Source of the DNA: Bdellovibrionales bacterium
GTDB lineage: Bacteria; Bdellovibrionota; Bdellovibrionia; Bdellovibrionales; JAUICD01
DNA: 64,000 nucleotides
Direction: 5' to 3'
Assembly: GCA_965262715.1 (NCBI GenBank)
Contig: OZ253553.1
Span: forward strand, 1,664,001 to 1,728,000
This document shows positions 36,001 through 42,000 of this stretch, in pieces; the stretch's first letter is position 1; every line of letters starts with the position of its first letter. The position numbers were made by a program.

Positions 36001-39000
36001 CTTTTAACAGAAACTCTTAGTTTTTTGCCGCGTGTTTTAGTATCATTAATCAGTTTAATAGGATCAGCAATCGGATCTAGATAAACATGAGCTTTTGAGT
36101 TGTTTTTCTTTCCAGGATTTAAAAAAACATTTACAACATTCCAGTTAAAAGAAAGAGCTCCCACATGAGCATCATAAGCTCTATCTGTTGGTGTTAGTCT
36201 ATTAGGATCTCTATTGACAGAATCAAAAAGAGAATCATCTACTATAATATCTCCTTGTATTTGATGAATCTGTCTTCTCATCAGTTCATTTACAAGATAC
36301 CACATTCTCTCTGAGGTGAAAGAAGGATCTCCAAAGCCTTTTAAATATAAAGGTCCATGTAAGACTCCTTTTTCAATTTTCTTGTTGACAAGCAACTGTG
36401 TTTCAAAAGTGTGACCAGTATTAAAGACATCCAATACAGTACCTGCAATAAGTATTTTTGTAAGGGATGCAGGTATTTTACTCATTTCAGGGTGAAGTGC
36501 ATATTCAAGATCATTTGTTGATAGATCTTTGATAACAAAGCTTAAGTTTGACTTAGAAATACGGTGTTTTTTAATGAGTTTGTCAATACGTGATTGAAAT
36601 GAAGAAGTCTCTACAGAAGCTAGTACAGAAAAAGACAAACACATCAAAGAAATAATGATGAAATGAATAACCCTCATAAAACATTTATAACATCTGTATA
36701 CACTTCATTTCAACAATAAAGATGATCTTATAAAATAAACAAAATAAAAAACACAAACCACAATAAATATTAAACTTACCCATGAAGACAGACTTAAGGA
36801 TAGGAAAACTTCTCCTCTAAAATCACCTCTAAAAGGTTCTATAATCAATCGACTTATACTGTGGAGTAAAAGCCAGAAATAAAAGAGACCTCCTTTTAGC
36901 AAAAACTTCTTTTTTTCTATAAATAAAATGAGTGTAAAAATTATAAACTCAGATCCAGAAAGGTAAAGCTGTGTAGGATGCAAAGGTATATTGCCAGGTG
37001 CAACCACATCAGATGAAAATGTCACAGCCCATGGAATTGAAGAGGGGTTACCATAACAGCATCCTCCTAAAAAACATCCTATTCGACCTAAAGCATATCC
37101 AAGTGAGATAATAGGTGTAAAAAAATCCATCCAGACAGTTAAACTATCTTTATGATATTTGATAACAATAAAACATCCTAAAAAAGCAAATAAAAAACCA
37201 CCATAAAAAACAAAGCCTCCTTGATAGAGTAAAAAAATATCAAGAGGATGTTTGAGGTAATAATCTGGATATTCAAAGACAACATGAACTAACCTAGCTC
37301 CTAGTATTCCAAAAATCATAATAACAAGTGAGTAATCCAGTGTTCTATGAGGAGAAAGTCCTTTTTGATCAGCACGTCTTACAGCCCAAAGTAGGCAAAA
37401 ACAACAGATCACTGACATCATAAAAATATAAGTAGAAAGCAAGAAAGAAGAATTGAAGGTCAAAGAAGGATACATCATCACACCTCAGGCACTTACTATT
37501 GGCCTTTTAATTATGAGTTTTCATTATTGGCCTGCACAATGAATATACTGAAAATGAAAGCACTAAGTATTGCCAATATCCAATAATATATACTTTTTTT
37601 AGTTTTAATCACATGATACTGGCCTGAAAAGATTTTTAACCCTCTAAGTTCTCCTTCATTATCTTTTGTTCGGATAGTATTTCTTATTTTTGAAGATGTA
37701 ATAGCAAAAATATCATGTAAGCTATTTAATAAAGCTTTACGTGTCCTGAGTTTGACACTTAATTTGAATTTTCGTGATATTTTTTTCAAGGAATGTTGTA
37801 TTTATAGTCATTAGCGGTTATTGTGTTTGTATTTTGGTCAAAAAGTGTAGTGTACTTATTTATCATACACTACGCGTCATATACCTTATTTTCTTTTATT
37901 TTTTATATTTTTCTTGTAATGTATTTTTATGTTCATAAGGTCTACAAGAAATCCGAGAGGAGACATATATTATCATCTTGTTGAGAGCTACAGATTAGGT
38001 TCTCAAGTGAAGCAAAGGATTCTAATGTCTTTAGGTAAAGCCGCGGATAAGGAAGTTAACTTGAAGAAGCTTCTAGACGTATTATCTAAAGAGTTAGAGA
38101 TAATTCCTGCTAGTAAGTTATTAAAAGAGATTGATGTAAAAGACACTTTTATTTTAGGTCCTTTGCTTATAATAGATACTATTTTTAAACAATTAAATCT
38201 CTATAGATTATTAACAGATTTAAAACAGAAGCATCGTAAAGTGCAATTTGATTTTGTTAAGATTATTTTTACATTGGTTATAAGTCGTTTTGTAGAGCCT
38301 TGTTCTAAGCTTAAAGTATTTTCACACTGGCAGAAGTTATTTTATCCTGATTTTTTAGAAGGGGAGCTTCATCTTCAAGACATTTATCGTTCTTTAGATA
38401 TTCTAAGTAAGCATAAAGAAGATATAGAGAAGACTCTTTATATGCGAGGTAAGTCTCAATTAAGTTTTTTCAATGAGTGTGATGTTATTTTGTATGATTT
38501 AACGACATTGAGATTTGAGAGTACCCGTGAGGATTTAGATAATCTTCGAAGGTTTGGTTATAGCAAAGAGAAGAGGAGTGATTGCACACAAGTGGTATTT
38601 GGACTTTTAGTAGATACAGAAGGTATGCCCTTAGGCTTTGATGTTTATCCTGGGAATACATTTGAAGGTAAAACAATACCTTCAGTTATGACGAAGCTAA
38701 AAAAGAAGTTTAAGATCAGAAGATTTATATTAGTAGGAGATAGAGGTTTATTTTCTAATGAGAATCTCCAATCATTAAAAGCAAAGGGAGATGAATTTAT
38801 AGTAGGATTAAAGCTAGGTTTATTAAAGGATCGTCATGCAGAGATATACAATTTAAAGAATTTTAAATTTATAAATGAAGATTTAGCTATATACGAGACA
38901 AGCTATAATAATGATCGTTGTATAATTACCTGGTCGAGAAAGAGAGCAGAACGAGATAAGAAAGTAAGAGAAGATATTCTATCTAAGATAGAAGCTCAAT

Positions 39001-42000
39001 TATCAAAGAAGTCCATAAGCACAAGATCTTTTTTATCTAATAGTAATTATAAGAAGTATATTGTTCATCCTAAGAGTAAAGGCAAGCCTACTTTAAATAA
39101 GTCAGCTATAGAACAATCAGAGAGGACAGATGGTTTTTTTGGAATAATTACAAACACAGATTTAAGCTCTGAAGAGATTATAATGAACTATAAGCAATTA
39201 TGGAAGGTAGAGAATTCATTTAGAGAGTTGAAGGGTACATTAAAGACACGTCCTATGTTCCACTGGACAGATAAGAGGATATTAGGTCATTTAGTTGTGT
39301 GTTTTTTATCTTACTTATGTGAGGCTTATTTTGCAAAGAAGTTACATCAAAGAAACATCACATTAAAAGATAAAGCGATCACAGACAAGAGAATAAAGTC
39401 AAGGCCATTGAGTGTAGCGGAAGCTATGTCAAAGCTGAAAGAAGTACGAGCTATACCTGTCAGATATAAAAACAAAACTATTTGGATAAGAACAGATATT
39501 TATGGCAATAACGCTGATGTATTTAAAGCTATAGGAGTTAAGATCCCATCAAAACAACTTAAAATTGAATCTACTTAAACCTACAAACAATCTCTTAAAT
39601 CTCTACCACAAAATCAAAATGTAGTGGTACAAAATCACACATCCACTGTAACTAACTAAAATAACTCAACTTTATTTTCGCAACTGTCAAACTCAGGAAA
39701 GAGCTCCCACATGAGCATCATAAGCTCTATCTGTTGGTGTTAGTCTATTAGGATCTCTATTGACAGAATCAAAAAGAGAATCATCTACTATAATATCTCC
39801 TTGTATTTGATGAATCTGTCTTCTCATCAGTTCATTTACAAGATACCACATTCTCTCTGAGGTGAAAGAAGGATCTCCAAAGCCTTTTAAATATAAAGGT
39901 CCATGTAAGACTCCTTTTTCAATTTTCTTGTTGACAAGCAACTGTGTTTCAAAAGTGTGACCAGTATTAAAGACATCCAATACAGTACCTGCAATAAGTA
40001 TTTTTGTAAGGGATGCAGGTATTTTACTCATTTCAGGGTGAAGTGCATATTCAAGATCATTTGTTGATAGATCTTTGATAACAAAGCTTAAGTTTGACTT
40101 AGAAATACGGTGTTTTTTAATGAGTTTGTCAATACGTGATTGAAATGAAGAAGTCTCTACAGAAGCTAGTACAGAAAAAGACAAACACATCAAAGAAATA
40201 ATGATGAAATGAATAACCCTCATAAAACATTTATAACATCTGTATACACTTCATTTCAACAATAAAGATGATCTTATAAAATAAACAAAATAAAAAACAC
40301 AAACCACAATAAATATTAAACTTACCCATGAAGACAGACTTAAGGATAGGAAAACTTCTCCTCTAAAATCACCTCTAAAAGGTTCTATAATCAATCGACT
40401 TATACTGTGGAGTAAAAGCCAGAAATAAAAGAGACCTCCTTTTAGCAAAAACTTCTTTTTTTCTATAAATAAAATGAGTGTAAAAATTATAAACTCAGAT
40501 CCAGAAAGGTAAAGCTGTGTAGGATGCAAAGGTATATTGCCAGGTGCAACCACATCAGATGAAAATGTCACAGCCCATGGAATTGAAGAGGGGTTACCAT
40601 AACAGCATCCTCCTAAAAAACATCCTATTCGACCTAAAGCATATCCAAGTGAGATAATAGGTGTAAAAAAATCCATCCAGACAGTTAAACTATCTTTATG
40701 ATATTTGATAACAATAAAACATCCTAAAAAAGCAAATAAAAAACCACCATAAAAAACAAAGCCTCCTTGATAGAGTAAAAAAATATCAAGAGGATGTTTG
40801 AGGTAATAATCTGGATATTCAAAGACAACATGAACTAACCTAGCTCCTAGTATTCCAAAAATCATAATAACAAGTGAGTAATCCAGTGTTCTATGAGGAG
40901 AAAGTCCTTTTTGATCAGCACGTCTTACAGCCCAAAGTAGGCAAAAACAACAGATCACTGACATCATAAAAATATAAGTAGAAAGCAAGAAAGAAGAATT
41001 GAAGGTCAAAGAAGGATACATCATCACACCTCAGGCACTTACTATTGGCCTTTTAATTATGAGTTTTCATTATTGGCCTGCACAATGAATATACTGAAAA
41101 TGAAAGCACTAAGTATTGCCAATATCCAATAATATATACTTTTTTTAGTTTTAATCACATGATACTGGCCTGAAAAGATTTTTAACCCTCTAAGTTCTCC
41201 TTCATTATCTTTTGTTCGGATAGTATTTCTTATTTTTGAAGATGTAATAGCAAAAATATCATGTAAGCTATTTAATAAAGCTTTACGTGTTTTTCCATGA
41301 AATGTTAGAACTCCTTTTGCATGAGGGCTTATGTCTAATATTTTTTCTTGGTTTTCTGGAATAGAAATAGCTTTGGTTGATCTCAATGTGACCAAAACTT
41401 CTAGCGGTTCACTTGATAAGTTTTCTAAAGAAAGATTTGCTGTAAAAGAACTTCCATGTGATGTGATTTGTAATTGTCCTTGAAGAGGTAGCTTAGGAGA
41501 TGAGATGGCTTCTGCTCCAATAAAAACATCTTTCACCATTATGGAAGAAAATGGGTATCCATTCATATCATGATAGTGACGATAAAACTCCATTGGATAA
41601 GAACCTATAAGAGGTAATTGAAAATCTCTACAATATTCTTTTGTGCAATGCCATTTAGATAAAAAAGATCTTTCGTGAATTCTCCATTCATGCTTTTCAT
41701 TGGGGTCTAAATCATACCCATCCCCTTTCCATTGCCATGATCCTATTTGTAATTCTGGAAAAACATCTAGGGCTATCTCATCTCCCAAATTTAAAAACTC
41801 TACATGACCTGAAACTGTAACAACACCTCCTTTTAGCTCAAATTGAACTTGAGGTGATCCCTGAATGGAAATGGTGCCCGCTAGAGTGCTATTTAAAAAT
41901 ATAAAGTAGAATAAAGTAATTAGAGATGATCTTAAAAACACTTTTACTACCTAATTTCCAGAACAAATATATATAATCTATTCAAAGTCTGCATGATCTC

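What a model noticed while it worked through the whole genome (the two positions that open the first line are those of the whole stretch)
36151..41290. IS1634-family elements make target duplications of up to 1.67 kb that copy whole genes
The IS1634-family elements duplicate their target on insertion over 38-1666 bp, about three times the longest value in the review read. The longest duplications copy whole genes (lgt, two ankyrin genes, others) and leave an intact copy of the interrupted gene (dacB, an M16 peptidase). Transposition therefore acts as a gene-duplication engine here.
Evidence so far: Of 31 elements with both terminal inverted repeats intact, 28 have a direct repeat abutting both ends exactly. 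The median is 245 bp, five exceed 1 kb (1182, 1340, 1593, 1663, 1666), and 12.7 kb is duplicated in all; most are 100% identical. Examples: 1700151-1705290 (lgt twice), 906575-911820, 1495716-1501001, 2330132-2334491. Public run X4 has one 8260-nt contig that joins across the lgt site, skipping 3546 nt = the element (1953) plus one repeat copy (1593), i.e. the empty single-copy allele. Related elements show 877-bp and 307-bp repeats in G029 and G038.
(Added by a program. Inside this text positions count along the whole contig: contig position 1,664,001 is position 1 of the stretch shown here. "Call 12" and the like, gene names such as g00115 and contig names such as C1 are that model's own, and its searches are not shown. 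The text may have been shortened before it was handed on; [...] marks where a part breaks off. The agent that wrote the report below was given it as the finding of a first reader that could run no searches.)

Follow-up and report, generated by a model that had tools for sequence, protein, structure and literature searches.

The report
Jumping gene copies kilobase-long targets
A bacterial jumping gene of a family known for long landing-site duplications copies up to 1.7 kilobases of host DNA when it inserts, enough to duplicate whole genes and spare the genes it hits, and the sequence pattern suggests its two ends pick their landing points separately.

Summary
Confirmed. A 1,953-bp IS1634-family element (37745-39697) sits between two identical 1,593-bp repeats. 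They copy lgt whole and leave dacB and a 294-aa gene intact. Genome-wide, 33 of 35 elements have such repeats (38-1,666 bp; five over 1 kb), against a published range of 8-514 bp with no model.

The scale is not unique to this genome. 109 of 145 related elements in 30 other genomes or records carry repeats of 12 bp to about 1.7 kb. This scan had noted shorter ones (43-269 bp) elsewhere.

New here: both repeat ends share one motif (T next to the element at 230 of 266 ends), without helical periodicity, so each transposon end seems to choose its own site. A separate IS1634 clade makes ordinary 4-6-bp duplications and differs at a few active-site residues, which gives a natural test pair.

Only 6 of 31 sites break an ORF (15 expected). 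One older ankyrin duplicate has diverged with both copies intact. 'Gene-duplication engine' is only partly supported: most copies are identical and probably unstable. The empty-allele contig may be an assembly collapse.

The parts
36152..37744 (.). left copy of the 1,593-bp target duplication (begins with A, ends with T)
   Evidence: 100% identical to 39698-41290
37745..39697 (+). IS1634-family insertion sequence, 1,953 bp; six copies of this subtype at 99.9-100% identity in the genome
37745..37757 (+). left terminal inverted repeat CCTGAGTTTGACA
37929..39578 (+). 549-aa DDE transposase (D190, D271, E428), Tn5-like fold plus a three-strand N-terminal domain
   Evidence: NF033559 365 bits, cut-off 100; catalytic residues invariant in 83 relatives; model pLDDT 89, Tn5 Z 20.2, rmsd 4.4 over 349 residues
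39685..39697 (-). right terminal inverted repeat
39698..41290 (.). right copy of the 1,593-bp target duplication
35256..36677 (-). dacB (PBP4-type peptidase S13), intact, 473 aa; its 5' part lies in the left repeat
36705..37481 (-). lgt-family gene, whole copy 1 (258 aa)
37511..37744 (-). orphan 3' piece of the 294-aa gene, in frame with a reading frame that starts inside the element's left end (ORF 37511-37789)
39693..40223 (-). truncated dacB 5' piece (176 aa) that stops in the element's right end
40251..41027 (-). lgt-family gene, whole copy 2 (258 aa, identical)
41057..41941 (-). 294-aa gene with no Pfam or NCBIfam match, intact; its 3' part lies in the right repeat

Best explanation
The repeats are true target-site duplications made at insertion by a long-duplication subgroup of IS1634-family DDE transposases. 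The two 3' ends of the excised element do not attack one bent 5-9-bp site. Each end is joined at its own site, 5' of an A in a weak A-N-W-A-A context on the attacked strand. The two sites lie on opposite strands, about 12 to 1,700 bp apart, in the duplicating polarity. Host replication or strand-displacement repair then copies the interval. A gene is lost only if it contains the whole interval, so long duplications spare genes and sometimes copy them whole, and the repeats give homology for later clean loss. SHOWN: structure, prevalence, end motif, split by transposase lineage, gene sparing in silico. INFERRED: uncoupled strand transfer, cut-and-paste donor chemistry, how the interval is copied, and reversibility.
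For: 33 of 35 elements here and 109 of 145 elsewhere have abutting repeats of 12 bp or more. T flanks the element at 57 of 62 ends here and at 230 of 266 pooled ends (G at 4), in every length class. T at -4 and -5 is enriched at both IRL and IRR over local T controls (p about 4e-14). No 9.5-12-bp periodicity was found (best p about 0.09). Of the 34 relatives without a repeat, 11 share a 114-441-bp flank with another copy in the same genome, as expected if copies recombined after insertion (run only where a genome had 3 or more elements). Removing element plus one repeat restores single ORFs, e.g. 706 codons at 132137, and leaves no footprint in genes crossing either end. The mode follows the transposase: 13 short-duplication transposases form one side of a branch (SH-aLRT 97; 2 label changes against 12 in shuffles), and Rhodococcus hosts carry both modes. 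Long repeats also occur in named cultured strains: 680 bp in an Aliarcobacter plasmid, 43-400 bp in Mycoplasmopsis gallopavonis, 147 bp in Rhodococcus.
Against: No fresh insertion was observed; all evidence is from assembled genomes. The only empty-allele evidence may be an assembly collapse, and the same-genus relative G001 is not syntenic at lgt. 34 of 145 related elements have no repeat, and 23 of them are unexplained (some end pairs may be false). The end motif is weak beyond one base. The model does not explain why the deleting polarity is rare. The tail fits an exponential better than a looping-type power law (log-likelihood -684 against -694), though loss of long repeats would steepen any tail. 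Long-mode relatives were collected by similarity to this element, so the tree is unevenly sampled and is a quick one without bootstrap.
Confidence: 0.72

Rival explanations
1. Fork-linked version of the same event: the two ends join the two sister duplexes (or the two sides of a lagging-strand gap) behind a replication fork, perhaps tethered by the beta clamp, so the interval is already replicated. This refines the best explanation rather than excluding it.
For: An Acidiphilium IS1634 transposase binds the beta clamp, and affinity sets its transposition rate (PMC4549789, passages). The four longest repeats cluster at 1,593-1,700 bp, and none of 142 is clearly longer, near the 1-2-kb Okazaki size (recalled).
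Against: The ceiling is not significant (2.1 repeats over 1,700 bp expected under a log-normal). There is no orientation bias to the replichores (18 against 17, with a noisy skew). The Acidiphilium elements I could measure are short-duplication types, so clamp binding does not by itself give long repeats. Clamp motifs in this transposase are only candidates.
Confidence: 0.3
2. The element first inserts with a short duplication, and the long repeat arises later, by unequal recombination between nearby copies or by hybrid-end insertion between sister chromatids.
For: IS-flanked tandem duplications are common. In Mycoplasma mycoides, 13-kb repeats with IS1634 between them are gained and lost on passage (PMC1798306, sections 4 and 7 and passages).
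Against: It predicts a majority of short-duplication copies. Only 2 of 145 relatives show 7-8 bp, and 1 of 35 here shows a 4-bp match. It needs two nearby insertions at almost every site, or a footprint at one end, yet ORFs crossing either end are intact. The short-mode clade in the same family shows no such secondary repeats.
Confidence: 0.07
3. Normal short stagger at one end, followed by nick translation or strand displacement that stops at random, giving the second boundary.
For: The exponential-like tail fits a process that stops at a constant rate.
Against: Both boundaries abut a transposon end exactly and show the same base preference (IRL 86 of 102, IRR 87 of 102 in relatives), which a host stop site would not give.
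Confidence: 0.08
4. Assembly artefact of a metagenome-assembled genome.
For: The genome is from an unnamed single-contig assembly, and two short-read contigs lack the duplication.
Against: Base-exact abutment at 31 sites with an A...T bias; the same pattern in 24 of 30 other genomes or records and in plasmids of cultured strains; diverged repeat copies (96-98%); run X2 forks at the junction.
Confidence: 0.03

Closest known systems
IS1634 (Mycoplasma mycoides) and IS1549 (Mycobacterium smegmatis)
   Same: Same family (NF033559) and element size. Both are reported to make long, variable direct repeats of 8-514 bp, with 'no mechanistic model' as of 2008 (PMC2266710, passages; the two original papers were seen only as titles in reference lists).
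   Different: Repeats here reach 1,666 bp (about 1.7 kb in G061), long enough to copy whole genes. The both-end base preference and the split into short-mode and long-mode clades were not found in the papers searched.
Short-duplication IS1634 members (Mesorhizobium, Acidiphilium, Alicyclobacillus, Geobacillus, Bradyrhizobium, Rhodococcus opacus plasmids)
   Same: Same NCBIfam model over cut-off (Mesorhizobium and Geobacillus scanned; others by record annotation or by match to my transposase profile), similar terminal repeats, same D-D-E and Y/K residues.
   Different: 4-6-bp duplications (8 of 8 Mesorhizobium loci; 11 of 19 other plasmid loci). S for T at position 193, D for E at 246, and a non-tryptophan residue at 425.
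Tn5/IS50 transposase (IS4 family)
   Same: Closest solved fold: Z 20.2, rmsd 4.4, 349 aligned residues, model range 78-517.
   Different: Fixed 8-9-bp duplication and complete YREK motif (PMC2266710). The element here has L for R in that motif and an extra N-terminal three-strand domain outside the Tn5 match.
IS-flanked tandem duplications of M. mycoides (13-kb and 8-kb repeats with IS1634)
   Same: Whole genes duplicated with IS1634 between the copies; unstable on passage (PMC1798306).
   Different: Described as segments flanked by IS copies, not as target duplications. The repeats here have an element only in the middle.

Membership tests
IS1634 family | Transposase matches the family model | tested here: met
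   NF033559 365 bits (cut-off 100) for the window protein; 348-382 bits for the genome's three other subtypes
IS1634 family | Single ORF, 1.5-2.0 kb, ends starting with C | tested here: met
   1,953 bp, one 549-aa ORF, ends CCTGAG; definition from the PMC2266710 table
IS1634 family | DDE triad with long spacer; YREK motif lacking the arginine | tested here: met
   D190, D271, E428, K435 invariant and Y421 nearly so in 83 sequences; L424 at the arginine position
IS1634 family | 5-6-bp AT-rich target duplication (the family's typical value) | tested here: not met
   38-1,666 bp here; the review names IS1549 and IS1634 as exceptions
IS1634 family, IS1549/IS1634-type long-repeat members | Long, variable-length direct repeats abutting both ends | tested here: met
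   33 of 35 elements; Mycoplasmopsis transposases fall on the long side of the tree
IS1634 family, IS1549/IS1634-type long-repeat members | Repeat made at the moment of insertion | not testable with these tools
   Indirect support only; empty-allele contig inconclusive
IS1634 family | C-terminal beta-clamp-binding motif | tested here: inconclusive
   The C-terminus has Q-L-K-I; QLSFF at 176-180 sits at a position where only 'xLF' is shared; binding not tested
IS4 family proper (IS10/IS50/IS231) | Complete YREK and 7-13-bp duplication | tested here: not met
   No arginine, long repeats; NF033592 45 bits, under its cut-off of 115
IS-flanked amplification (IS-unit-IS-unit-IS) | IS copies at the outer ends of the repeated unit | tested here: not met
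   No element end at the outer boundaries of the five repeats over 1 kb (end list; junctions)

The most novel reading that the evidence does not exclude
The long-mode IS1634 clade uses an integration route not described for DDE transposases: two active sites engage separate target sites up to about 1.7 kb apart, possibly on the two arms of a replication fork, and a few active-site residues switch the family between this mode and ordinary 5-6-bp insertion. The result is a gene-sparing, reversible transposon spread over many phyla that seeds paralogues, and a possible tool for insertion without gene loss.
Probability: 0.45. Interest if true: 0.82.

Novelty: new variant of a known kind. Interest (0 to 1): 0.63.

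Why it matters
Target duplication length in DDE transposition is normally fixed by the geometry of one protein-DNA complex. The long repeats of IS1549 and IS1634 have stood as an exception since 1998-99, with no model as of the 2008 review. Kilobase duplications rule out a simple stagger within one complex. The shared motif at both ends and the paired short-mode and long-mode clades turn the question into concrete assays. The repeats also change what an insertion costs: the chance of breaking an ORF in this genome falls from 0.77 at 5 bp to 0.59 at 250 bp and 0.09 at 1.6 kb. In practice such sites are missed by IS annotators that look for short duplications, and they can collapse in short-read assemblies.

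Tried and rejected
1) Empty allele from public runs: contigs in X3 and X4 skip 3,546 nt, but X2 of the same sample forks at the junction, and X6 (another study) shows no junction; treated as inconclusive. 2) Ancestral site in relatives: G001 has a single orthologue of this lgt but different neighbours. 3) Orientation to replication: 18 co-directional, 17 head-on. 4) Helical periodicity of lengths: none. 6) Repeat length against element age: rho 0.09, p 0.63. 7) Fold of the N-terminal domain: best Z 3.8, inconclusive; a sequence search of solved structures gave nothing useful. 8) The first tree used a wrong ORF for the Rhodococcus AH-ZY2 element and shortened ORFs for several others; it was redone with annotated ORFs. 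The Microbacterium 'short' label is doubtful. 9) Element-free retained duplicates: 10 of the close repeat pairs without an element between them were inspected, and none showed element ends; no mini-elements of 80-1,500 bp with these ends were found. 10) The promoter scan of the locus found fewer sites than shuffles (17 against 26.6), so how dacB is transcribed after the insertion is open. 11) Literature: ten searches listed no paper with kilobase IS1634 target duplications or a mechanism. Vilei 1999 is not held; Plikaytis 1998, ISfinder, TnPedia and the supplements of PMC2266710 were not seen and may list longer values.
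Full report
1. Observation. The window holds an exact repeat at 36151-37744 and 39697-41290. The element between begins CCTGAGTTTGACA and ends with its reverse complement, so the first G of the match belongs to the element. The duplication is 1,593 bp and the element 1,953 bp. Its 549-aa ORF scores 365 bits on NF033559, IS1634 family, cut-off 100. The left repeat holds the 5' part of an intact dacB, a whole lgt and the 3' tail of a 294-aa gene. 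The right repeat holds a 176-aa dacB stub, a second lgt and the 3' end of the intact 294-aa gene. Close relatives of the element lie in records titled Bdellovibrionales, which fits the host's genes.

2. Genome census. tblastn gave 40 loci, and four end motifs gave 73 ends. Of 35 elements with both ends placed, 31 have an ungapped abutting repeat of 38-1,666 bp, 28 of them 100% identical. Gapped comparison adds a 327-bp repeat split by another insertion and a 733-bp repeat at 96.5%. Two sites lie in repeat arrays and stay unresolved. For the 33: median 251 bp, 9 over 514 bp, 5 over 1 kb, 15.1 kb in all. All four transposase subtypes in the genome, about 30% identical to each other, behave alike. 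Whole genes are copied at the named sites: a 229-aa gene with the M16 peptidase left intact, a 225-aa ankyrin gene, and a 139-aa ankyrin plus a 233-aa gene.

3. The empty-site claim. Runs X3 and X4 each have an 8,260-nt contig that skips 3,546 nt. X2, X3 and X4 are one sample, possibly the source of the assembly. In X2 the contig ends exactly at 37744 and the next starts at 41261, which is a fork at the repeat's end. Depth is 17 on the repeat-bearing contig and 12.2 beside it; 1.34-fold is expected if the repeat is doubled (my arithmetic). Graph cleaning next to a high-depth element can collapse such a loop (inference). I treat this evidence as inconclusive. G001 has one orthologue of this lgt but other neighbours.

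4. How general. I collected loci from genome and metagenome scans and from all-copy searches of 15 genomes. From 254 candidate end pairs I kept 145 with both ends, an IS1634 ORF and at least 2.5 kb of flank, in 30 genomes or records. 109 have an abutting repeat of 12 bp or more (median 175; 13 over 514 bp; 2 over 1 kb), 2 have 7-8 bp, and 34 have none. The longest are about 1.7 kb in a gammaproteobacterial record (G061) and 1,406 bp in G068. One genome (G069) dropped out because its two ends differ; measured apart, 8 of its 10 loci have 142-708-bp repeats. The focal genome is shifted to longer values (5 of 33 against 2 of 109 over 1 kb; Fisher p 0.008, samples not independent). Eleven of the 34 without a repeat share a 114-441-bp flank with another copy in the same genome, reciprocally in G067, which is the mark of later recombination between copies. 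Plasmids of named cultured strains show the trait too: 680 bp (Aliarcobacter), 147 bp (Rhodococcus AH-ZY2), and 43-400 bp at 7 of the 10 Mycoplasmopsis gallopavonis loci whose ends I found, out of 13.

5. Clues to mechanism. Repeats read A...T. T flanks the element at 57 of 62 ends here and at 230 of 266 pooled ends, G at 4, in every length class. Against T positions nearby, T at -4 and -5 is enriched (55% against 30-31%, p about 4e-14), similarly at both ends, and there is no symmetric A five or six bases away. Each end therefore sees a half-site. Lengths are roughly log-normal (median 185), with no helical period. The tail above 100 bp fits an exponential better than a power law. Orientation is unrelated to replichore, and length is unrelated to element age. 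A -10-box preference proposed in an earlier scan note is not seen here.

6. Two modes in one family. Eight of 8 Mesorhizobium loci (two share their flanks) and an Acidiphilium copy have 5-6-bp duplications. Of 19 further plasmid loci, 11 have 4-6 bp, 1 has 680 bp and 7 gave no call there (one of them showed about 340 bp). In a quick tree of 45 transposases, 13 of 14 short-mode proteins form one side of a branch (SH-aLRT 97). The fourteenth has doubtful ends and long-type residues (one search had wrong ORFs and is superseded). Differences lie near the active site: T193 in 31 of 31 long against S in 12 of 14 short; E246 in 27 of 31 against D in 12 of 14; W425 in 29 of 31 against at most 1 of 14. 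W425 follows the motif position that is arginine in Tn5, where the neighbouring tryptophan aids hairpin cutting (recalled). These may be lineage marks rather than causes. The model (pLDDT 89) matches Tn5 transposase best (Z 20.2). The N-terminal three-strand domain has no clear match.

7. Consequences. With each element and one repeat removed in silico at 31 sites and a crude ORF caller (77% coding), 6 intervals lie wholly in one ORF against 15.0 for random placement (p 0.0003). At 14 sites an end falls in an ORF that survives, and 7 whole ORFs are copied. Ends also avoid ORFs (31 of 62 against 47), so selection or AT preference contributes as well. Six sites rejoin into single ORFs, e.g. 706 codons from two overlapping pieces. 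One older event left two intact 175-aa ankyrin genes differing at 12 residues (pN/pS 0.70), so duplicates can persist and diverge. Most copies are identical, however, and similar IS1634-containing repeats in M. mycoides are lost on passage (PMC1798306: passages, sections 4 and 7). Whether the full-length dacB is still transcribed behind the element is unknown.

8. Explanation. Most likely (0.72) the two transposon ends are joined at two separately chosen sites on opposite strands, and the host copies the interval. Structure, motif, prevalence and lineage split are shown; the chemistry is inferred. A fork-linked version (0.3, compatible) draws on clamp binding by an Acidiphilium IS1634 transposase (PMC4549789, passages; also PMC5371812, passages), but the Acidiphilium elements measured here are short-mode. 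Secondary duplication (0.07), one-sided nick translation (0.08) and artefact (0.03) fit poorly.

9. What is known. PMC2266710 (passages) gives 5-6 bp for the family, 8-514 bp for IS1549 and IS1634, and states that no mechanistic model had been proposed. Ten searches listed nothing on kilobase target duplications; most hits were seen only as listings. Passages of PMC3053259, PMC9392320, PMC12818412, PMC12274833, PMC5797395 and PMC11004492 added no lengths. The 1998 and 1999 originals, ISfinder and supplements were not seen. Earlier notes of this scan report 43-269-bp cases and gene sparing in other genomes; they are unchecked leads.

10. Verdict. Real, and a new variant of a known kind. The trait is known; the kilobase range, whole-gene copying, both-end motif and short/long lineage pair extend it and make an old mechanistic question testable. 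Interest 0.63.

Noticed in passing
L026:1450-1977 and L026:4133-4660 (contig 1133449-1136659): A third ankyrin gene was duplicated whole by an older element with a decayed right end; both 175-aa copies are intact and differ at 12 residues (pN/pS 0.70, not different from neutral).
   Followed up: yes
contig 2903764-2907847: One element inserted into another copy of itself, with a 244-bp duplication of element sequence, inside a 345-bp host duplication.
   Followed up: yes
contig 477463 and 869231: Other insertions of 1.3-1.4 kb landed inside a repeat copy (477463) or inside the element (869231).
   Followed up: partly
L027:4985-5971: The 855-bp duplication at contig 693969 ends inside another DDE transposase gene (Pfam DDE_Tnp_1_5), which stays intact, and copies a 143-aa gene whole.
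   Followed up: partly
window 37511-37789; L024:5291-5806: A reading frame starting inside the element's left end runs outward and fuses in frame to host sequence at two sites, once to a whole ankyrin gene.
   Followed up: no
contig 1107624-1108073: A second, divergent lgt paralogue exists; all four relatives checked also have two matches, so the duplicated gene need not be the only Lgt.
   Followed up: partly
pooled repeat lengths: The four longest repeats cluster at 1,593-1,700 bp, just under the element length, with none clearly longer among 142; unexplained and not significant.
   Followed up: partly
window 52761-58121 and 62910-63999: Multi-copy region with three type IV pilin-like ORFs (named from their N-terminal motif, recalled) and a 351-aa ORF that looks like an Rpn/YhgA-type transposase (recalled), next to an sbcD/sbcC-like pair.
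   Followed up: no
contig 2388932-2392930 and 2791475-2796387: 844-bp and 1,024-bp direct repeats around 2.3-2.9-kb stretches without IS1634 ends; the first holds a methyltransferase-like frame (by eye).
   Followed up: partly
L019:6204-6690: A 487-bp non-autonomous derivative with the same ends in G004.
   Followed up: no
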